From NCBI GenBank assembly GCA_944324315.1, contig CALUVW010000005.1, positions 14,927 to 78,926 of the forward strand: DNA of 64,000 nt, read 5' to 3'. Every line of letters begins with the position of its first letter. Within the stretch, counting starts at the first letter, position 1. Position numbers and translations under genes: made by a program. This stretch comes from Candidatus Gastranaerophilales bacterium (lineage in GTDB: Bacteria > Cyanobacteriota > Vampirovibrionia > Gastranaerophilales > Gastranaerophilaceae). This document shows positions 1,503 through 64,000 of the stretch, piece after piece. The notes below the pieces were generated by a model. The model did not search any database and was not told the DNA's origin. It saw only the letters and a list, made by a program, of their open reading frames with translations.

Positions 1503-2128
1503 TGAATAAAGATTTGATGAATTATGTTGAAACCAGGATTATTCCTAAGTATATGGAGTTTGACAAGGGGCATAATATTGAACATGTCAGAACTGTTATT
1601 GAAGAGAGTTTGAAACTTGCACAAAATTGTGGCGCAAACCTTGAATATTCTTATGTGATAGCCGCATATCATGATTTAGGTTTGTGTGAAGGACGTGAAT
1701 TTCACCATGTTGTTTCAGGAAAAATCTTAGAGTCTGATAATCAATTAAAACAATGGTTTTCGGTAGATGAGATAAAATTAATGAAAGAGGCTGTTGAAGA
1801 TCACAGGGCATCTTCAAAAAATCCGCCGAGAACTGTTTACGGAAAAATTGTTGCAGAAGCTGACCGTGATATTGTACCTTTAAAAATTATAAAGCGAACT
1901 ATTCAATATTCCCTGAACAATACTCCATCTCCTGATAAGGAAACCCATTGGAAACATCTTGTTGATCACATGAAAGAAAAGTATGCCGATGGCGGATATA
2001 TGAAATTGTGGTTTGAAAATTCAAAAAATGCAGAAAATCTTAAAGAATTGCGGAAAATCATACAAAATCAAAAAGAACTGCGAAGAGTTTTTGACCAAAT
2101 ATATGTTGAAACCTTGAATAATCTGTAA
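1502..2128 (+). CDS. HD-domain metal-dependent phosphohydrolase
   Basis: The ORF-track entry 1418..2128 has an internal ATG at 1502 (MNKDLMNYVE) that abuts the SDR stop. It carries H...HD (AAYHDLG) and a downstream DH/D motif. Confidence 0.65.
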   Translation: MNKDLMNYVETRIIPKYMEFDKGHNIEHVRTVIEESLKLAQNCGANLEYSYVIAAYHDLGLCEGREFHHVVSGKILESDNQLKQWFSVDEIKLMKEAVEDHRASSKNPPRTVYGKIVAEADRDIVPLKIIKRTIQYSLNNTPSPDKETHWKHLVDHMKEKYADGGYMKLWFENSKNAENLKELRKIIQNQKELRRVFDQIYVETLNNL

Positions 2129-2142
2129 TAATGTTGTATAAT
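2114..2142 (+). promoter_or_regulatory. Sigma70-like promoter for pilin leader cassette copy 1 (TTGAAT-17-TATAAT)
   Basis: TTGAAT at 2114-2119, a 17-nt spacer and TATAAT at 2137-2142. Cassettes 2 and 3 have the same -35/-10 architecture. Confidence 0.45.
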
Positions 2143-2181
2143 TTATTATATATAATCAGAATAAAGAAAGGAGTTAGATTT

Positions 2182-2235
2182 ATGAAAAGATTATTAAGAA
2201 CTGTAAACCTCGGGGGGGGGGCGATTCAGAGCTAA
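2182..2235 (+). CDS. Upstream mini-ORF (MKRLLRTVNLGGGAIQS*) running through a G10 tract; leader cassette copy 1
   Basis: AAGGAG lies 8 nt upstream of the ATG. The C-terminus LGGGAIQS-stop is identical in copies 1-3, and tandem TAA TAA stops follow. Confidence 0.4.
   Translation: MKRLLRTVNLGGGAIQS
2212..2221 (+). repeat. G10 homopolymer inside the mini-ORF (copy 1)
   Basis: Counted directly: 10 consecutive G, flanked by CCTC and CGATTCAGAGCTAA. Confidence 0.9.
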
Positions 2236-2390
2236 TAAGAGGTCAGGAAGCCCGGAGGTCAAGAAGTCAAGCGATTAACGTCATCCTGAATTTATTTCAG
2301 GATCTAGTATTTAGATGCAAAGATGCTAAGAGGCATAGATGCAAAGTCTGTAACGTAAACACCTTCCTTCCCTTATTAGGGAAGGATAAG
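2236..2390 (+). promoter_or_regulatory. Conserved structured 5' leader of the pilin-like gene (copy 1)
   Basis: It contains AGGTCA(A/G)GAAG words, the hairpin GTCATCCTGAATTTATTTCAGGATCT (2280-2305) and the direct repeat TAGATGCAAAG at 2312-2322 and 2336-2346. An SD-sequestering hairpin CCTTCCC-TTATTA-GGGAAGG lies at 2366-2385. The leader is near-identical to 41713-41876 and largely to 28311-28420. Confidence 0.6.
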
Positions 2391-3158
2391 ATGATGGGTA
2401 GGAATCAATACCCACCCCTGCCCTCCCTAATCAGTGAGGGTGTTAAGCCCGTAGATACCTCGAATAACATTCGTCGAGCAGCTTTTACTCTGGCAGAAGT
2501 TCTCATCACCCTTGGAATAATTGGTGTTGTTGCCGCTATGACAATGCCTGTATTAATTCAAAAACACAAAAATCAGGTGACTGAAGCACGTTTAAAAAAG
2601 TTTTATTCTGTTATTAATCAGGCAATAATAATGTCAGAAGCTGTAAATGGAGAAAGAATTTATTGGGCTGATTTTTATACTGGTAAAGTTGTAAATGCCA
2701 GCACTGTAGAAAGTTGGTTTAATATATATCTTAAACCTTATATGAATATTGTAAAAACAGATAAAAACACTGTTGGTGGCGGTACTGCAGGAAATGTTTT
2801 TTCTGTTTACTTTCCAGATGGCAGTATTTTAAGACAATCCTATGGAAATGGTTATGCTGATTGGGTATTTTATCCGGATGGTGAAAAATGTGCAGAAAGA
2901 TATGGTGGAGCAGGAGGTTCAGGAATTTGCAGATTTCTTTTTTACTATAATCCTTCAGAAGAAAATAGTAAAGGTTTTGAACCATATAAATGGCTTTGGG
3001 ACGGTGACCCGGATAAATTAAAAAAAGCTTGTTATGACAATGTTTCAATTGCCAGCGGTGTAGCTCCAGGTGCTTATTGTACAGCATGGATTCAATACAA
3101 TGGTTGGAAAATCCCTAAGGACTATAAACCTCATAGTTCAAATAAGAAAAAAAGCTAA
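2391..3158 (+). CDS. Prepilin-type N-terminal cleavage/methylation domain protein (type IV pilin / pseudopilin-like) with a 36-aa leader
   Basis: The class-III signal RRAA|FTLAEVLITLGIIGVVAAMTMP has Glu at +5. The long leader is MMGRNQYPPLPSLISEGVKPVDTSNNIRRAA. Confidence 0.8.
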   Translation: MMGRNQYPPLPSLISEGVKPVDTSNNIRRAAFTLAEVLITLGIIGVVAAMTMPVLIQKHKNQVTEARLKKFYSVINQAIIMSEAVNGERIYWADFYTGKVVNASTVESWFNIYLKPYMNIVKTDKNTVGGGTAGNVFSVYFPDGSILRQSYGNGYADWVFYPDGEKCAERYGGAGGSGICRFLFYYNPSEENSKGFEPYKWLWDGDPDKLKKACYDNVSIASGVAPGAYCTAWIQYNGWKIPKDYKPHSSNKKKS

Positions 3159-17690: not shown

Positions 17691-18326
17691 ATGAAAAAAG
17701 GGTTTACGTTAGCTGAAGTTCTGATAACACTCGGTATTATAGGCGTAGTAGCTTCAATAACCATGACGTCGTTGATTGCAGAGCATCAAAAGTTGGTGAC
17801 AGTTACAAAATTGAAAAAAGCTTATAACGTCTTAAATAATGCTATTAGATTGGCAGAAGTTGAACATGGAGATAAGTCTCAATGGGGTGATTCTAATAAC
17901 GATGAATGTGGACTTTATATTTATAATCATTATGTTAGAGGTAAATTAAAAGTTCTTAAAGATGTAGAAGATACTGGCTCTAATTGTCAATCTGATCCTG
18001 AAATTGTATTAGCTGATGGTATTGTTCTGGATTCTTTTATTAATTGGAGTCCCTTAAGTCGGGACGCTTTCACTGTTGATATAAATGGGGCAGCGGGGCC
18101 TAATAAAGTGGGTAGAGATAGATTTGACTTTTTCTATTCAAGTAAATATGGATATGCGCCTGCTGGTTTTTGTGATCATCCGGAATGGTCACCTTCCGAT
18201 TGTGTCGCAACAGATGGTAGTAGGAATGATGTGAAAAATGCCGGATGTAATGAGCGAAATAAGTTTTTATGTGGTGCATTAATTATGATGGATGGGTGGC
18301 AAATAAAAGACGATTATCCATGGTAG
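17691..18326 (+). CDS. Prepilin-type N-terminal cleavage/methylation domain protein with a classical short leader
   Basis: MKKG|FTLAEVLITLGIIGVVASITM, and a C-terminal VDINGAAGPNKVGRDRFDFF motif shared with the other paralogues. AGGAGG SD. Confidence 0.85.
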   Translation: MKKGFTLAEVLITLGIIGVVASITMTSLIAEHQKLVTVTKLKKAYNVLNNAIRLAEVEHGDKSQWGDSNNDECGLYIYNHYVRGKLKVLKDVEDTGSNCQSDPEIVLADGIVLDSFINWSPLSRDAFTVDINGAAGPNKVGRDRFDFFYSSKYGYAPAGFCDHPEWSPSDCVATDGSRNDVKNAGCNERNKFLCGALIMMDGWQIKDDYPW

Positions 18327-28256: not shown

Positions 28257-28310
28257 ATGAAGAGATTAACTATGCCTGAAATCCTCGGGGGGGGGGCAAT
28301 TCAGAGCTAA
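28257..28310 (+). CDS. Upstream mini-ORF (MKRLTMPEILGGGAIQS*) through a G10 tract; leader cassette copy 2
   Basis: Same C-terminus and stop context as copies 1 and 3. The SD (AAGAG) is weak. Confidence 0.35.
   Translation: MKRLTMPEILGGGAIQS
28287..28296 (+). repeat. G10 homopolymer (copy 2)
   Basis: Counted directly. Confidence 0.9.
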
Positions 28311-28355
28311 CAGGAGGTCATGAAGCCCAGAGGTCAAGAAGTCAAGAGATTAGTT

Positions 28356-28380
28356 TCATCCAGTATTTATTTCAGGATCT
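28356..28380 (+). repeat. Degenerate copy of the dispersed hairpin repeat within leader cassette 2
   Basis: In TCATCCAGTATTTATTTCAGGATCT the left arm is mutated relative to copy 1. Confidence 0.5.
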
Positions 28381-28492
28381 AGCATTTAGATGCAAAGATG
28401 CTAAGAGGCATAGATGCAAAGCAGCATTTATTCTTGCCGAAGGTGCTACGCACGTAGCCCACTCTCAGAATATTCGTCGAGCAGCTTTTACT

Positions 28493-29272
28493 TTGGCAGA
28501 AGTTCTCATAACCCTCGGCATAATTGGAGTAGTTGCCGCTATGACAATGCCGAGTTTGATTACTAATTACCAGAAAAAGGTCTGGACTGATCAGCTAAAA
28601 AAAACTTATTCTACCTTGAATGAAGCATACCGTCAGACTTTAGCACACGCAGGCTGTACAGATGCAATAAGCTGCGGGTTTATGGATGTTGGGAGCTCTA
28701 TACTTCCAGAATTTAGCACTGATTTTTATATTAAATTATTAAATAACTTGAAGCATGAAAATTTATTATTAGTTCCAAATATGAATAATATGACTTCAGA
28801 AGAATTGAATGATTTTAGTGCAAATGTAAATCAGGAACTTGGAAATTATTATACAACTTTAACCTTTAAATTAATGAAAAATAATCGTCAAGTAGATCTT
28901 TATGATTTGATTCCATCTTACTATGTTGAAAAAGGTGGATTTTTTGCGAATACAACTGACGGAGCAATGATAGCATTCTTTAATCCTGGTATCTTGATAG
29001 ATGTCAACGGAAGTAAGGGGCCAAATGTTGTAGGCAGAGATGTTTTTATGTTTTCTGCAACTGATAATGCTATAGTACCAGAATCTTCTATTGCTTATAG
29101 GAATTTTCTTTCGAGAATTTATCCTAAAGCAGCTGATGAATCCGGCCTTTCAGATACACTGCTTGACTATAATGAATTGAAAAGTAAATGTTTATCTTCT
29201 ACCAGCGCTTCTACTTCAGCTGTATGCTGTGCAGATATAATTGTGTTTGATGGCTGGGAGATGAAGTATTAA
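28493..29272 (+). CDS. Prepilin-type N-terminal domain protein without a conventional in-frame start; frame open upstream to 28280
   Basis: IRRAA|FTLAEVLITLGIIGVVAAMTMP is encoded from 28472. The only track start (TTG 28493) lies inside the mature FTLAEV motif. No ATG, GTG or TTG occurs in frame between 28280 and 28492. C-terminal motif IDVNGSKGPNVVGRDVFMF. Confidence 0.7.
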   Translation: MAEVLITLGIIGVVAAMTMPSLITNYQKKVWTDQLKKTYSTLNEAYRQTLAHAGCTDAISCGFMDVGSSILPEFSTDFYIKLLNNLKHENLLLVPNMNNMTSEELNDFSANVNQELGNYYTTLTFKLMKNNRQVDLYDLIPSYYVEKGGFFANTTDGAMIAFFNPGILIDVNGSKGPNVVGRDVFMFSATDNAIVPESSIAYRNFLSRIYPKAADESGLSDTLLDYNELKSKCLSSTSASTSAVCCADIIVFDGWEMKY

Positions 29273-41655: not shown

Positions 41656-41712
41656 ATGAAAGATATGTTAAAAAATATTAAGTACCTCGGGGGGGGGGCG
41701 ATTCAGAGCTAA
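41656..41712 (+). CDS. Upstream mini-ORF (MKDMLKNIKYLGGGAIQS*) through a G10 tract; leader cassette copy 3
   Basis: AAGGAG lies 7 nt upstream. It has the same LGGGAIQS-stop end as copies 1 and 2. Confidence 0.4.
   Translation: MKDMLKNIKYLGGGAIQS
41689..41698 (+). repeat. G10 homopolymer (copy 3)
   Basis: Counted directly. Confidence 0.9.
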
Positions 41713-41789: not shown

Positions 41790-41876
41790 ATAATTAGATG
41801 AAAAGATGCTAAGAGGCATAGATGCAAAGTCTGTAACGAAAACCCCTTCCTTCCCTTATTAGGGAAGGATAAGAGG

Positions 41877-42704
41877 ATGGGTATTAATCAATACCCACCC
41901 CTGCCCTCCCTAATAAGGGAGGGTGTTAAGCCCGTAGATACCTCGAATAACATTCGTCGAGCAGCTTTTACTTTGGCAGAAGTTCTCATCACCCTTGGAA
42001 TAATTGGTGTTGTTGCCGCTATGACAATGCCTGTACTTATAAATAATTATCAAAAACACGCTTTGAAAAATCAATTCAAAGTAGCATATTCATTGTTAAA
42101 TCAGGCATTACTATCGGCCATAGAGAAAAACGGCGGTGCATTTAACTGCTGGTATTGGAAAACTATTCCGTATCCTGGTGCAGTATGCAAAAAGTGGGAT
42201 GGCAGTGCCTGTGCTGAGTACTCTATGCCTGACGGTTCTCCATTACCTGCAGATTATAACGGAAAATTTGACGAATGTGCAAATATGTATAATGCATTAC
42301 ATTCTGAATTGAAAGTCGTTTCTGAATGTAAAAATAATTCGACCAATCATTGTGTTCCTGAATATAAAGGAAAAGATGTTGTAAATGCTGATCCTGACAA
42401 AACTATGACGGAAATATTAGGTGCGTGTCCGAATTTAGCAACAAGTAATTTGAATAGGTTTTCTTACAAAATTTTATCTAATGGTATAATAACCGGGTAC
42501 GAGCGGTCAGGCTGGGTCTTTATTGTAGACGTAAACGGAAGTAGAGGCCCGAATAAATGGGGTTATGATGTTTTTCTTTTTGCCCCACAACTTCATGGTT
42601 CCAATAGTTCAGGAATGATTATTTTTGGCGGTATGAAAGGGAATGGTTGTAATTTAAAAGAACCGGGAGGCTATTATACACATGAAATGCTAGAAAATTA
42701 TTAA
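41877..42704 (+). CDS. Prepilin-type N-terminal domain protein with a long leader
   Basis: MGINQYPPLPSLIREGVKPVDTSNNIRRAA|FTLAEVLITLGIIGVVAAMTMP. The first 160 nt or so are near-identical to 2391-2560. C-terminal motif VDVNGSRGPNKWGYDVFLF. Confidence 0.8.
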   Translation: MGINQYPPLPSLIREGVKPVDTSNNIRRAAFTLAEVLITLGIIGVVAAMTMPVLINNYQKHALKNQFKVAYSLLNQALLSAIEKNGGAFNCWYWKTIPYPGAVCKKWDGSACAEYSMPDGSPLPADYNGKFDECANMYNALHSELKVVSECKNNSTNHCVPEYKGKDVVNADPDKTMTEILGACPNLATSNLNRFSYKILSNGIITGYERSGWVFIVDVNGSRGPNKWGYDVFLFAPQLHGSNSSGMIIFGGMKGNGCNLKEPGGYYTHEMLENY

Positions 42705-59197: not shown

Positions 59198-60040
59198 CTA
59201 TTTACATTTAGTTTTTGTTCCCCATTGTAAATCATCGCAGTGAAGATAATCCATATTTTCATTTTGTATGACCCATGCGGTACAATTACTGGCTAAAGCC
59301 CTGTTGAAACTACAAGTTTGTGAAAAATCTGGATGTTCTTGTTGTGTTCCGGTTGGCAGTATTCTGTCTTTTTTCATTTCAAACACAAAAAAGTCTTTGC
59401 CAAATTGGTTTGGTCCCCTGTAATATCCGTTTGTATCTACAAATATTTCTGCACAGTTGGTGGCATTGCTATATAGACCAATATAGTCTGTTGAGCATTT
59501 TTTAAATCCGGGGCTGACATGGAATATAATTAAAGTACCATCTTCTAAAACTAGATGTTTGTAGGAACCTTGAAAATTGTAAGCTATATGCGGAGTTCCA
59601 TTTAAATATAAATATTTTTTTGAACCAATGCAGGTATTTATTTTTTTGCAGTCATCAGCTATTTTAAAATATGGTTTAAAATACTGATTAAGTAGTACTT
59701 GTGAACCTTCTTTTGAATCCTCATCTTTTAAATCCCATTGATCAACTGTCATTCCAGTGTCATTAATCGCACTTACAAGTGCCTGGCTTAAAATAGAATA
59801 TACTTTTTTCAATTTGGCAACGGTTTCTTTTTCTCTATGATCTTGAATAAGAGATGGTATTGTCATTGATGCAACAACACCGATGATACCGAGGGTGATA
59901 AGAACTTCAGACAAAGTGAATGCAAATTTTTTTAGTCGATAAGACGTTAAGACGTTAGGACGATAAATGCGTTTCGGGGAATTACTCTTCCCCTCCCTTA
60001 TCAGGGAGGGGGGTAGGGGTGGGTATTGATCAAAACCCAT
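59198..60040 (-). CDS. Prepilin-type N-terminal domain protein with a long leader (cassette copy 4)
   Basis: MGFDQYPPLPPSLIREGKSNSPKRIYRPNVLTSYRLKKFA|FTLSEVLITLGIIGVVASMTIP. C-terminal motif VDTNGYYRGPNQFGKDFFVFEM. Confidence 0.8.
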   Translation of the reverse strand: MGFDQYPPLPPSLIREGKSNSPKRIYRPNVLTSYRLKKFAFTLSEVLITLGIIGVVASMTIPSLIQDHREKETVAKLKKVYSILSQALVSAINDTGMTVDQWDLKDEDSKEGSQVLLNQYFKPYFKIADDCKKINTCIGSKKYLYLNGTPHIAYNFQGSYKHLVLEDGTLIIFHVSPGFKKCSTDYIGLYSNATNCAEIFVDTNGYYRGPNQFGKDFFVFEMKKDRILPTGTQQEHPDFSQTCSFNRALASNCTAWVIQNENMDYLHCDDLQWGTKTKCK

Positions 60041-60177
60041 CCTAACCTTCCCTAATAAGGGAAGGAATTTATTTTTACGCGGGCACTGCCCGCCAATAAC
60101 AGCCTGCCCTCCTGCCTTCTTGACCTCCGGAAATCTGTTTATATTAAACTCACCTGAAAATACAGTATCTGTCAGTC
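60041..60177 (-). promoter_or_regulatory. Leader of pilin copy 4: SD-sequestering hairpin plus a GC hairpin
   Basis: CCTTCCC-TTATTA-GGGAAGG (60046-60065 on the + strand), then TTAGG-ATG. It also has a GCGGGC-AGT-GCCCGC hairpin and the word CCGGAGGTCAAGAAG shared with copies 1-3. Confidence 0.55.
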
Positions 60178-60216
60178 TTACGGGGGGGGGGCAATTCTAA
60201 GCTTTCTATTTAACAT
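60178..60216 (-). CDS. Upstream mini-ORF (MLNRKLRIAPPP*) running through a C10 tract; leader cassette copy 4
   Basis: A strong SD AGGAGG lies 5 nt upstream. It starts 9 nt after the stop of 60226..60870. Confidence 0.4.
   Translation of the reverse strand: MLNRKLRIAPPP
60182..60191. repeat. G10 (top strand) / C10 (gene strand) homopolymer, inverted module
   Basis: The top strand reads CGGGGGGGGGGCAATTCTAAGCT, matching the top-strand CGGGGGGGGGGCAATTCAGAGCT of copy 2. The associated pilin gene is on the opposite strand. Confidence 0.9.
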
Positions 60217-63451: not shown

Positions 63452-63563
63452 AACTGTAATTTATAATAAAAGATAAAAAATGTCCACTGAAATGGGCTTG
63501 CATTATCTTAAAAAAAGGAGTATTATCTTATTAATTTGTATAATAAGATAAGAGGTTCGTTTT

Positions 63564-64000
63564 TTGAAATTTCTTAACAAACAGTTATATTCCGGTTTTA
63601 CTCTTGCAGAGGTGCTGATAACTCTCGGTATTATAGGTGTAGTCGCTGCGATGACACTCCCTACTTTAAATCAGAAACTTTCTGACCAAAAAAATATGTC
63701 ATCTTTAAAAAAAGCATATTCCATTCTTCAACAGGCAACTCTTCTTGTAATATCAGAACATGAAGCGCCTGAATACTGGACTATTGAGGATAATGATCAA
63801 GAACTTGTAAATACTATTTATAATTATTATAAACCTCATTTCAATATGATGAGAGAATGCCAGAACAGTTCCGGATGCTGGGGATATCCGACAAAATATC
63901 TAAATGGTAATGTTTATTGGTCAGCACATAATACTTCATGGTATCAATATGCTTTTACACTCACAGATGGGATTAATGTTTTATTAGATATTTATGATAC
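63564..64000 (+). CDS. Prepilin-type N-terminal domain protein (5' partial in window; TTG start)
   Basis: LKFLNKQLYSG|FTLAEVLITLGIIGVVAAMTLP is a classical G|F cleavage site with no long leader cassette. The ORF runs off the window end. Confidence 0.7.
   Translation, partial: MKFLNKQLYSGFTLAEVLITLGIIGVVAAMTLPTLNQKLSDQKNMSSLKKAYSILQQATLLVISEHEAPEYWTIEDNDQELVNTIYNYYKPHFNMMRECQNSSGCWGYPTKYLNGNVYWSAHNTSWYQYAFTLTDGINVLLDIYD

What the first reader, a model, noticed from the sequence alone, without database searches (positions are those of the whole stretch)
2182..2393. The homopolymer places every mini-ORF exactly one nucleotide out of frame with the pilin frame
I translated codon by codon at all four loci. 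In each one, the mini-ORF ATG frame and the pilin frame differ so that one extra G or C in the 10-mer would join them. A -1 ribosomal slip or a +1-nt transcriptional slip would do the same.
- Copy 1: ATG 2182 versus pilin ATG 2391. With G11 the product reads MKRLLRTVNLGGGGDSELIRGQEARRSRSQ...FLPLLGKDKMMGRNQYPP..., with no stop over about 70 codons.
- Copy 2: ATG 28257 versus frame 28493, open from 28280.
- Copy 4: ATG 60216 versus 60040, open from 60196, although the intervening sequence is unrelated to copies 1-3.
- Copy 3: a 6-nt insertion relative to copy 1 preserves the frame.
Long open frames are unexpected in AT-rich non-coding DNA.
Two points argue against a conserved leader peptide. Copy 1 versus copy 2 substitutions fall mostly on codon positions 1 and 2, so there is no third-position bias. 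All four tracts are exactly 10 nt, which fits programmed recoding or a fixed OFF state better than free-running phase variation. Candidate mechanisms are slipped-strand phase variation (as with poly-G tracts in Neisseria or Campylobacter contingency genes), transcriptional slippage, or a uORF-based translational gate.
Basis: partly seen in the sequence, partly recalled or inferred. Interest (0 to 1): 0.85.

Follow-up and report, generated by a model that had tools for sequence, protein, structure and literature searches.

The report
Poly-G switches silencing gut-bacterium pilin genes
Four pilin genes of an uncultured gut bacterium (Candidatus Gastranaerophilales) each carry a run of ten G or C bases just after the true start codon. 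The run puts the gene one base out of frame, which is the layout of a slippage-driven on/off (phase-variation) switch, seen here across a whole uncultured lineage and almost always "off".

Summary
The window has four 10-nt G/C runs, and each sits about 30 nt after a start codon with a good ribosome-binding site. In all four, one extra base would fuse the 12-18 codon "mini-ORF" to the downstream type IV pilin frame. Copies 1, 2 and 4 are open throughout.

The mini-ORF is the true 5' end of a prepilin gene, and the run lies in the leader-peptide coding region. Among 236 pilin genes from related Gastranaerophilales genomes and metagenomes, 124 have such a run of 8-12 nt, most often 10.
- Linkers of 90 nt or more are stop-free in the pilin frame in 31 of 43 cases, against 0 and 1 in the other frames.
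- Many loci have no other start codon.
- Correcting one base restores canonical leaders such as MKRFNQNVGGGGILG|FTLAEV.
- Only 8 of 98 are in frame. 52 need +1 nt and 38 need -1 nt.

Best explanation: slipped-strand phase variation of a large, mostly silent pilin repertoire. The nearest analogues are Neisseria pilC and Campylobacter poly-G genes. RNA-level slippage remains possible, because 30 of 31 copies in this species are exactly 10 nt. This is a new member of a known kind and of moderate interest.

The parts
2114..2142 (+). Promoter-like site TTGAAT-17-TATAAT upstream of the copy 1 start codon
   Evidence: Consensus scan, 10 of 12 matches. No promoter-like site was found between the run and the internal ATG.
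2167..2173 (+). Shine-Dalgarno sequence AAAGGAG, 8 nt before ATG 2182
   Evidence: Read directly from the sequence.
2182..2235 (+). Copy 1 mini-ORF. It is the true start of the prepilin gene read in the OFF frame (MKRLLRTVNLGGGAIQS*).
2212..2221 (+). Copy 1 G10 run. The in-frame length would be 11 (or 8).
   Evidence: The run is G10 in all 6 strain copies of this locus.
2222..2483 (+). Copy 1 linker, 262 nt. It is stop-free in the pilin frame and built from hairpin modules: repeats GAGGTCAnGAAG at 2239 and 2255, hairpin 2283-2303, hairpin 2366-2385, and an internal ATG at 2391.
   Evidence: Stops per frame are 0/9/10. Modules. Compensatory change in hairpin 2283-2303. No third-position bias.
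2484..3158 (+). Copy 1 mature pilin, starting FTLAEVLITLGIIGVVAAMT, with N_methyl and DUF6613 domains
   Evidence: Pfam; motif scan.
28257..28310 (+). Copy 2 mini-ORF (MKRLTMPEILGGGAIQS*)
28287..28296 (+). Copy 2 G10 run
   Evidence: Strain copies are four G10 and one G9 (L091).
28297..29272 (+). Copy 2 linker (190 nt) plus pilin. The linker is open in the pilin frame, and no ATG, GTG or TTG occurs before the mature FTLAEV motif (F codon at 28487). It includes a partial duplication of the pilin N-terminus (AAFILAEGATHVAHSQNIRRAAFTLAEV).
41656..41712 (+). Copy 3 mini-ORF (MKDMLKNIKYLGGGAIQS*)
41689..41698 (+). Copy 3 G10 run
   Evidence: The run is G10 in the window and in all four other contigs at this locus.
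41799..41801 (+). In-frame TGA in the copy 3 linker. It is strain-specific; other strains have TGC here.
41877..42704 (+). Copy 3 pilin ORF from the internal ATG. The mature N-terminus begins at 41967.
60178..60216 (-). Copy 4 mini-ORF (MLNRKLRIAPPP*), preceded by the Shine-Dalgarno sequence AGGAGG
60182..60191 (-). Copy 4 run. It reads C10 in the sense strand and G10 on the + strand.
   Evidence: The run is C10 in 10 other strain copies, which include a second, unrelated allele.
59198..60181 (-). Copy 4 linker (261 nt) plus pilin. The linker is open in the pilin frame, has an internal ATG at 60040, and the mature N-terminus begins at 59920.

Best explanation
Each cassette is the 5' end of a type IV prepilin gene. 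A sigma-70-type promoter and a strong ribosome-binding site drive translation from the ATG of the mini-ORF. The G/C run lies inside the leader-peptide coding region. The sequence between the run and the FTLAEV processing site is a long leader that is removed by the prepilin peptidase. This leader has to stay free of stop codons, but its amino-acid sequence is not otherwise constrained.

At the assembled length of 10 nt, translation ends a few codons after the run and the gene is OFF. Gain of one G/C by slipped-strand mispairing during replication would put the start codon in frame and switch the gene ON. Loss of a base would switch it OFF again.

The organism therefore holds a large repertoire of variable pilins. 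About half of all pilin paralogues in Candidatus Gastranaerophilales are each one slippage step from expression, and most cells keep most of them silent.

Shown here: the anatomy, the frame arithmetic, the selective maintenance of open frames and pure runs, length polymorphism between loci and species, and the existence of in-frame alleles. Inferred, not shown: that switching happens at the DNA level, at high frequency and reversibly.
For: 1. The run lies in coding sequence.
- Linkers of 90 nt or more are stop-free in the pilin frame in 31 of 43 loci, against 0 and 1 of 43 in the other two frames. Total stops are 65, 261 and 317.
- Copy 2 and about 30 short-linker loci have no other start codon.
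- Adding or removing one base gives canonical leaders in 33 of 33 short-linker loci, for example MKKRIALSCPPPQG|FTLAEV.

2. Natural in-frame alleles exist: L114 G10, L151 G11, L120 G11, L175 G11, L171 G9, L027 C11, L062 G8 and L044 G11.

3. Run length is polymorphic.
- Near pilins the lengths are 8 nt (1 locus), 9 (7), 10 (72), 11 (34) and 12 (10).
- There is a G9 variant at copy 2 (L091).
- Similar cassettes L086 and L028 carry G10 and G9.
- Paralogues in L063 carry G11 and G12.

4. Both +1 (52 loci) and -1 (38 loci) corrections are needed. This fits a two-way switch, not a directional recoding signal.

5. Runs are pure or absent. Only one 9-of-10 interrupted run was found among 101 pilin upstream regions without a run.

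6. The same runs sit at the 5' ends of other genes in relatives, including a TupA-like ATP-grasp gene. Some are in frame and some are out of frame.

7. The genes are not decaying. The pilin bodies are intact, pN/pS is about 0.55-0.8, and the N-terminus shows third-position bias.

8. Precedents.
- Neisseria pilC varies in phase through a poly-G/C run within the reading frame (PMC5953494).
- C. jejuni poly-G genes have a narrow modal length of 9, produced by length-dependent insertion and deletion bias (PMC3401435).

9. The pattern is not a sequencing artefact. The same lengths recur in independent assemblies from several studies and assemblers, and the "error" would have to go in both directions.
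Against: - Length is strikingly uniform within this species. 30 of 31 cassette copies are 10-mers, and all 29 ten-mers with an assigned mini-ORF start need +1, across five loci and unrelated alleles.
- Cassette pairs with about 85% identical flanks in different species usually keep the same length.
- Only 8 of 98 loci are in frame, against one third expected (P about 4e-9, loci not fully independent). This is far more OFF-biased than is usual for contingency loci, as far as I know.
- No in-frame allele of any of the window's own pilins appeared among the database proteins.
- No read-level data on heterogeneity were available.
- Copies 1, 3 and 4 have an internal ATG just after a hairpin that could give run-independent expression. 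Copy 3 in this strain can only use that ATG.
Confidence: 0.6

Rival explanations
1. Programmed RNA-level recoding. The DNA is kept permanently out of frame. A fixed fraction of transcripts gains or loses one G/C through RNA polymerase slippage on a run about as long as the RNA-DNA hybrid, or a fraction of ribosomes shifts on G GGG GGG or C CCC CCC. The result is constitutive low-level pilin expression.
For: - 30 of 31 copies in this species are exactly 10 nt, and all 29 ten-mers with an assigned mini-ORF start need +1.
- Length is conserved between diverged cassette pairs.
- In-frame lengths are strongly avoided: 8 of 98 loci, and only 1 of 60 ten-mers.
- Ten-mers need +1 in 47 cases against 12 needing -1. 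Eleven-mers need -1 in 17 cases against 1 needing +1.
- Runs of 10-11 nt roughly match the RNA-DNA hybrid length needed for realignment without mismatch (general knowledge of transcriptional slippage).
- The ORFs are intact although the genes are always OFF in the consensus.
Against: - Known productive slippage sites in bacteria are mostly A/T runs (general knowledge).
- The direction needed differs between loci, 52 against 38. That excludes a single -1 ribosomal frameshift signal.
- No conserved stimulatory structure follows the run, and downstream sequences differ completely between loci.
- In-frame alleles and length variants do exist.
- A narrow modal length is also produced by purely mutational bias in C. 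jejuni.
- Any such run will also slip at the DNA level.
Confidence: 0.22
2. uORF or leader-peptide gate. The mini-ORF is a separate regulatory upstream ORF containing rare GGG codons or a PPP stalling motif. Its translation controls initiation at an internal start codon that is sequestered by the CCTTCCC/GGGAAGG hairpin.
For: - Copies 1, 3 and 4 have an internal ATG (2391, 41877, 60040) 4-6 nt after a GGGAAGG arm that could serve as a Shine-Dalgarno sequence masked by the hairpin.
- Copy 3 has a stop in its linker.
- A subset of loci in relatives (L011, L035, L088) have stops in the linker and their own ATG 18 nt before the mature N-terminus.
- OFF-frame stops come early: within 15 nt in 32 of 51 loci, against about 29% expected.
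Against: - Copy 2 and about 30 short-linker loci have no start codon other than that of the mini-ORF.
- The linker is kept open in the pilin frame all the way from the run, which a separate uORF would not require.
- The mini-ORF stop lies 156 nt from the internal ATG in copy 1, too far for coupling.
- No Rfam family matches, and the folding z-score is only -1.9.
Confidence: 0.08
3. Artefact or decay. The runs are homopolymer sequencing or assembly errors in genes that are really in frame, or the genes are pseudogenes inactivated at a mutation hotspot.
For: - The data are short-read metagenome assemblies.
- One contig end shows a C22 run typical of a poly-G artefact (L014).
- Some contigs break at the cassettes.
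Against: - The same length recurs in about 30 independent assemblies from different projects and assemblers.
- The implied errors would be undercalls at 10-mers and overcalls at 11- and 12-mers.
- Pseudogenes would accumulate stops and interrupted runs, but linkers are open, runs are pure and pilin bodies are intact.
Confidence: 0.04

Closest known systems
Neisseria pilC1/pilC2 phase variation (poly-G run in the 5' coding region; Jonsson et al. 1991, cited in PMC5953494)
   Same: A homopolymeric G/C run inside the 5' coding region of a type IV pilus gene. One-base changes shift the frame between ON and OFF, and the OFF product is a short truncated peptide.
   Different: - Here the run is in the pilin subunit genes themselves, in dozens of paralogues per genome.
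- Run length is confined to about 9-12 nt, against 9-20 in Neisseria.
- About 92% of loci are OFF in the consensus.
- The leaders can be 60-150 codons long and are built from hairpin modules.
- Switching has not been shown.
Campylobacter jejuni poly-G/C contingency genes (Bayliss et al. 2012, PMC3401435)
   Same: - AT-rich genome.
- Many G/C runs of 8-12 nt with a sharp modal length.
- Runs within reading frames of surface-structure genes, including TupA-like and capsule-type genes in relatives of this organism.
- Both G and C sense orientations occur.
   Different: - The mode is 10-11 nt rather than 9.
- The targets are mainly type IV pilins, which C. jejuni lacks.
- The OFF bias is much stronger.
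- The lineage is uncultured Melainabacteria (Vampirovibrionia), where the full-text searches run here found no report of phase variation.
Programmed transcriptional slippage (Thermus dnaX A9, Shigella mxiE T9, IS element transposases)
   Same: A homopolymer of 9 nt or more between two overlapping frames. The out-of-frame arrangement is conserved across homologues, and one added or lost base restores the full product.
   Different: - Those cases use A/T runs and a fixed direction.
- Here the runs are G/C and both directions are needed in different loci.
- In-frame alleles exist here.
- No RNA data are available.
Opa (CTCTT repeats) and other multigene phase-variable adhesin families
   Same: - Repeats in the signal or leader peptide coding region.
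- A large paralogous family in which each member switches independently and most members are OFF at any time.
- Recombination between paralogues. Here this shows as allele shuffling (L109) and mosaic linkers.
   Different: The repeat is a mononucleotide run rather than a pentamer. The proteins are pilins, not outer-membrane proteins.

Membership tests
Simple-sequence-repeat phase-variable (contingency) gene, translational type | A perfect homopolymer of about 7 nt or more inside the reading frame, near the 5' end | tested here: met
   G/C10 lies 20-35 nt after an ATG with a Shine-Dalgarno sequence. The pilin frame is open from the run onward.
Simple-sequence-repeat phase-variable (contingency) gene, translational type | A change in run length moves the start codon in or out of frame with a functional ORF | tested here: met
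   A change of one base restores canonical prepilin leaders in 33 of 33 short-linker loci, and 8 natural in-frame alleles exist.
Simple-sequence-repeat phase-variable (contingency) gene, translational type | Run-length polymorphism between strains or within populations at the same locus | tested here: inconclusive
   Lengths run from 8 to 12 nt across species. Within this species only 1 of 31 copies differs (G9 in L091). No read-level data were available.
Simple-sequence-repeat phase-variable (contingency) gene, translational type | High-frequency, reversible ON/OFF switching of expression | not testable with these tools
   This needs reads, a culture or reporter constructs.
Simple-sequence-repeat phase-variable (contingency) gene, translational type | Targets are surface or host-interaction genes | tested here: met
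   The targets are type IV pilins with N_methyl and DUF6613 domains. A TupA-like ATP-grasp gene in a relative also carries a run.
Programmed -1 ribosomal frameshifting | Slippery heptamer X XXY YYZ in the zero frame | tested here: met
   G GGG GGG or C CCC CCC lies within the run.
Programmed -1 ribosomal frameshifting | A conserved downstream stimulatory structure and a constant shift direction in homologues | tested here: not met
   Sequences downstream of the run are unrelated between loci. 38 of 98 loci would need the opposite shift.
Programmed transcriptional slippage | A homopolymer about as long as the RNA-DNA hybrid, with the out-of-frame arrangement conserved among homologues | tested here: inconclusive
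   The arrangement is conserved in this species, where all 29 ten-mers need +1, and 90 of 98 loci overall are out of frame. However, in-frame alleles and length variants exist, and the runs are G/C rather than A/T.
Programmed transcriptional slippage | mRNA run-length heterogeneity that exceeds that of the DNA | not testable with these tools
   This needs paired cDNA and gDNA sequencing.
Regulatory uORF / leader peptide | The main ORF has its own start codon and ribosome-binding site, independent of the uORF | tested here: not met
   Copy 2 and about 30 loci in relatives have no start codon between the run and the mature pilin. The feature is met only in copies 1, 3 and 4 and a minority of loci.
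Known structured RNA families (Rfam 15) | A match to a curated covariance model | tested here: not met
   There were no matches at the gathering threshold in the window, and none at E of 5 or less in 2100-2600.

The most novel reading that the evidence does not exclude
The runs are not DNA-level switches but fixed recoding sites. Gastranaerophilales would keep about half of their pilin genes permanently one base out of frame at G/C10-11 runs, and express them only through RNA polymerase or ribosome slippage in either direction. That would be a lineage-wide use of G/C-run transcriptional recoding for a whole surface-protein family. A further layer may exist: the run keeps the same absolute DNA-strand polarity whatever the gene's orientation.
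Probability: 0.2. Interest if true: 0.75.

Novelty: new member of a known kind. Interest (0 to 1): 0.5.

Why it matters
Gastranaerophilales are widespread, uncultured, non-photosynthetic relatives of cyanobacteria in human and animal guts, and almost nothing is known about how they interact with the host.

- **Annotation.** About half of their many type IV pilin genes sit one base from expression behind a G/C run. Their surface is therefore probably highly variable from cell to cell. Gene callers systematically mis-annotate these genes, with wrong starts or "hypothetical" leader fragments. Run lengths in metagenomic reads could serve as a direct readout of selection on piliation in vivo, for example by phage, IgA or adhesion.
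- **Unusual features.** The consensus is almost always OFF, the run length is nearly fixed, and the long mosaic leaders are stop-free. These features are unusual for contingency loci and make the lineage a useful test case for separating DNA-level from RNA-level slippage.

Tried and rejected
- **Rfam.** Searches of the window and of 2100-2600 at a permissive E-value gave no match. A known riboswitch or RNA motif is rejected.
- **RNA folding.** Folding 2150-2500 gave z = -1.87. It predicts pairing of the G run with a C-rich module that copy 2 and the short-linker loci lack. This is not a general mechanism.
- **Invertible promoter or shufflon.** This was considered because copy 4 carries the G10-CAATTC..AGCT motif inverted relative to the gene. 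It is rejected because copy 4 has its own correctly oriented ribosome-binding site and ATG, and because there is no C10 on the + strand to serve as an inverted partner.
- **Ribosomal bypassing, or an intron removing the linker.** This was considered because the mini-ORF ends ...GGG and pilin leaders end in G. It is rejected because the linker is kept open in the pilin frame.
- **DNA-pattern scan of metagenome contigs for window-type cassettes with variable run length.** It gave 0 hits.
- **Look-up of the deaminase gene next to copy 3.** It failed because the protein is not on record. The pilin itself was used instead.
- **Protein search with the hypothetical G11 fusion of copy 1.** It found no database protein starting MKRLLRTVNLGGGG.
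- **GC-skew test of a leading-strand preference.** 56 of 67 runs lie on the G-rich strand, but this is confounded by gene orientation, and only 7 of 12 sense-C loci fit. The result is inconclusive.
- **Literature searches.** No paper on phase variation or homopolymeric tracts in Melainabacteria or Gastranaerophilales pilins was found.
Full report
**Observation.** The window is 34.7% G+C and contains exactly four G/C homopolymers of 7 nt or more. All four are G10 on the + strand: 2212-2221, 28287-28296, 41689-41698 and 60182-60191. About 0.07 G9 matches are expected by chance.

Each run lies 25-33 nt downstream of an ATG that has a good Shine-Dalgarno sequence. Each run lies upstream of a gene with a prepilin N-terminal methylation motif (FTLAEVLITLGIIGVV; Pfam N_methyl, some with DUF6613).

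The short ORFs are:
- 2182-2235, MKRLLRTVNLGGGAIQS*
- 28257-28310, MKRLTMPEILGGGAIQS*
- 41656-41712, MKDMLKNIKYLGGGAIQS*
- 60216-60178 on the minus strand, MLNRKLRIAPPP*. Here the run reads C10 in the sense strand.

In all four the pilin frame is the mini-ORF frame minus 1, so one extra base would fuse them. The pilin frame is stop-free from the run to the pilin in copies 1, 2 and 4.

- Copy 3 has an in-frame TGA at 41799-41801. It is present only in this strain and one other contig; three other strains read TGC.
- The copy 4 linker is not unrelated to the others. It shares GGAGGTCAAGAAG, the CCTTCCC-TTATTA-GGGAAGG hairpin and ATCAATACCCACCCCT.
- Copy 2 has no ATG, GTG or TTG in the pilin frame anywhere between the run and the mature N-terminus.

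Variable columns in the linker fall 15/22/22 on positions 1/2/3, against 6/3/14 in the pilin N-terminus.

**Origin.** Exact-protein look-ups place the window in a gut metagenome-assembled genome of the same species as GCA_949298375.1. Relatives found through the pilin N-terminus are almost all titled Candidatus Gastranaerophilales or Melainabacteria. The window also encodes a secretin, a T2SS/T4P ATPase and a platform protein. A pilin next to that operon (17691-18326, MKKGFTLAEV) has no run.

**What the cassette is.** I collected two samples of pilin genes chosen without regard to the run:
- 80 loci from species-representative genomes.
- 80 loci from metagenome contigs.

Of 236 pilin N-termini, 124 (53%) have a G or C run of 8-12 nt within 800 nt upstream. 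The lengths are 8 nt (1 locus), 9 (7), 10 (72), 11 (34) and 12 (10). The architecture is the same everywhere: a Shine-Dalgarno sequence, an ATG, 6-12 codons, the run, and a stop a few codons later in the ATG frame.

Four results show that the ATG is the real start of the pilin gene and that the run lies in its leader-peptide coding region.
- Linkers of 90 nt or more are stop-free in the pilin frame in 31 of 43 loci, some over 350-460 nt. The other two frames are open in 0 and 1 of 43. Total stops are 65, 261 and 317 (Fisher P about 7e-19).
- In many loci the run is only 5-60 nt from the FTLAEV motif, with no other start codon.
- Adding or deleting one base in those 33 loci always yields a canonical prepilin leader. 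Examples are MKRFNQNVGGGGILG|FTLAEV, MKKRIALSCPPPQG|FTLAEV and MQNLDTVRISGGGQSNLKPG|FTLAEV.
- Eight natural alleles are already in frame, for example L114 MKTLNMTEFSPRGGGNSRRIA|FTLAEV and L151 MTKFLTGGGGKAARRKA|FTLAEV.

In copy 1 a promoter-like TTGAAT-17-TATAAT (2114-2142) precedes the mini-ORF, and none lies between the run and the internal ATG.

The long linkers of the window's copies are therefore unusually long leaders that are cleaved off. They must be translatable, but their amino-acid sequence is free. This explains the combination of open frame and no third-position bias. The linkers are mosaics of hairpin modules that also occur elsewhere in these genomes. One hairpin (2283-2303) shows a compensatory change between copies.

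**Frame states.** Among 98 loci with an open linker and an identifiable start, 8 are in frame, 52 need +1 nt and 38 need -1 nt. By run length:

| Run length | Need +1 | Need -1 | In frame |
|---|---|---|---|
| 10 nt | 47 | 12 | 1 |
| 11 nt | 1 | 17 | 5 |
| 12 nt | 2 | 6 | 0 |

That speaks against a single directional ribosomal frameshift signal, and no conserved structure follows the run.

The distribution is far from random, however. The in-frame state is strongly depleted (8% against 33%; P about 4e-9, with the caveat that loci are not fully independent). The resting length is almost always one step from the in-frame length.

Runs are either perfect or absent. Only one 9-of-10 interrupted run was found upstream of 101 pilins without a run. 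The pilin bodies are intact, with pN/pS about 0.55-0.8. These are therefore not decaying pseudogenes. Something that depends on a pure homopolymer is under selection.

**Within-species variation.** Strain variants from independent assemblies gave 31 copies of the species' five cassette loci. Thirty are 10-mers and one is G9 (L091 at the copy 2 locus). All 29 ten-mers with an assigned mini-ORF start need +1. This includes two unrelated alleles at the copy 4 locus, with linkers of 261 and 66 nt.

The same assemblies show recombination between cassettes:
- L109 carries the copy 3 pilin behind the copy 1 start at the copy 1 locus.
- The copy 1 linker of L001, L003 and L004 is a mosaic with copy-3-type sequence.

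**Mechanism.** The layout is that of a translational, homopolymer-driven phase-variation switch.
- The closest precedent for the position and gene class is Neisseria pilC, which has a poly-G/C run within the reading frame of 9-20 nt (PMC5953494).
- The closest precedent for genome style is Campylobacter jejuni. Its many poly-G/C runs have a modal length of 9, because insertions dominate at G8-9 and deletions at G10-11 (PMC3401435).

Further support comes from the same runs at the 5' ends of non-pilin genes in relatives. These include a TupA-like ATP-grasp gene, and some are in frame while others are not.

I therefore favour DNA-level slipped-strand switching of a large, mostly silent pilin repertoire (confidence about 0.6). 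What is shown is the anatomy, the selective constraints, and the existence of length variants and ON alleles. The switching itself is inferred.

**Rivals.**
- *RNA-level slippage (about 0.22).* It is favoured by the near-invariance of length within the species and between diverged cassette pairs, and by the extreme avoidance of in-frame lengths. It cannot be excluded without paired cDNA and gDNA data.
- *A separate regulatory uORF that gates the hairpin-masked internal ATGs of copies 1, 3 and 4 (about 0.08).* It cannot be the general mechanism, because many loci have no second start codon. It may still add run-independent expression at those copies, and it is the only route for copy 3 in this strain.
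- *Sequencing artefact or gene decay (about 0.04).* It is contradicted by reproducibility across assemblers, by the two-directional "errors", and by the intact frames.

**Novelty.** Full-text searches found no report of phase variation or homopolymeric tracts in the pilins of Melainabacteria or Gastranaerophilales. The kind of mechanism is well known, so I class this as a new member of a known kind. Its unusual traits are an almost universal OFF consensus, run lengths confined to 10-11 nt, long stop-free mosaic leaders, and a possible absolute-strand polarity of the run.

Noticed in passing
window 2212, 28287, 41689, 60182; also L023, L043, L058, L072, L073, L182: The run keeps the same absolute strand polarity whatever the gene orientation. 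In 7 of 10 loci with run-bearing pilins on both strands, the run is the same base on the same DNA strand (24% expected, P about 0.003). In the G orientation both classes read C-Gn-C and share a 3' CAAT..AGCT motif. This is unexplained. It may be a replication-strand effect on slippage, or descent by local inversion.
   Followed up: partly
L109:1270-2328 compared with window 2182-2483 and 41877-42704; L001:7730-8060: Pilin alleles move between cassette loci. One strain has the copy 3 pilin body behind the copy 1 promoter and mini-ORF. Other strains have a copy 1 linker that is a mosaic with copy-3-type sequence. The conserved linkers may act as recombination handles.
   Followed up: partly
window 59198-60216 compared with L097:2650-3374: The copy 4 locus has two unrelated alleles in the population. 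Their linkers are 261 and 66 nt and their pilins 280 and 207 aa. Both carry C10 and both need +1.
   Followed up: yes
window 2283-2303, 2366-2385, 2421-2440, 41849-41923, 59991-60065: The linkers are built from short hairpin modules. Translated, these read ILNLFQDL/HPELVSG, FLPLLGK, YPPLPSLIREG, and in relatives MLKQVQHD and FPRPFGERVRERG. The modules recur in pilin leaders across the order, and some also occur outside them. Their role is unknown.
   Followed up: partly
window 28419-28510: Copy 2 has a partial tandem duplication of the pilin N-terminus (AAFILAEGATHVAHSQNIRRAAFTLAEV) around a GCTACG-CA-CGTAGC palindrome. The same GATHV module is common in relatives, and in 13 of 14 cases it is in the pilin frame.
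   Followed up: partly
L045:1360 and 2306; L034:16432; L030:5788: G/C10 runs also sit at the 5' ends of non-pilin genes in relatives. One is in a TupA-like ATP-grasp gene and is in frame. Its neighbour gene is out of frame. Two uncharacterised proteins are in frame.
   Followed up: partly
window 17691-18326 and about 63560-64000: Two further pilin genes in the window have no run and no long leader (MKKGFTLAEV...). One lies directly after the secretin, ATPase and platform operon and may be the constitutively expressed pilin.
   Followed up: no
L014:1-30: This contig starts with a C22 run followed by C-rich sequence. It is probably a poly-G sequencing artefact at a contig end. It was not counted as a cassette.
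   Followed up: no
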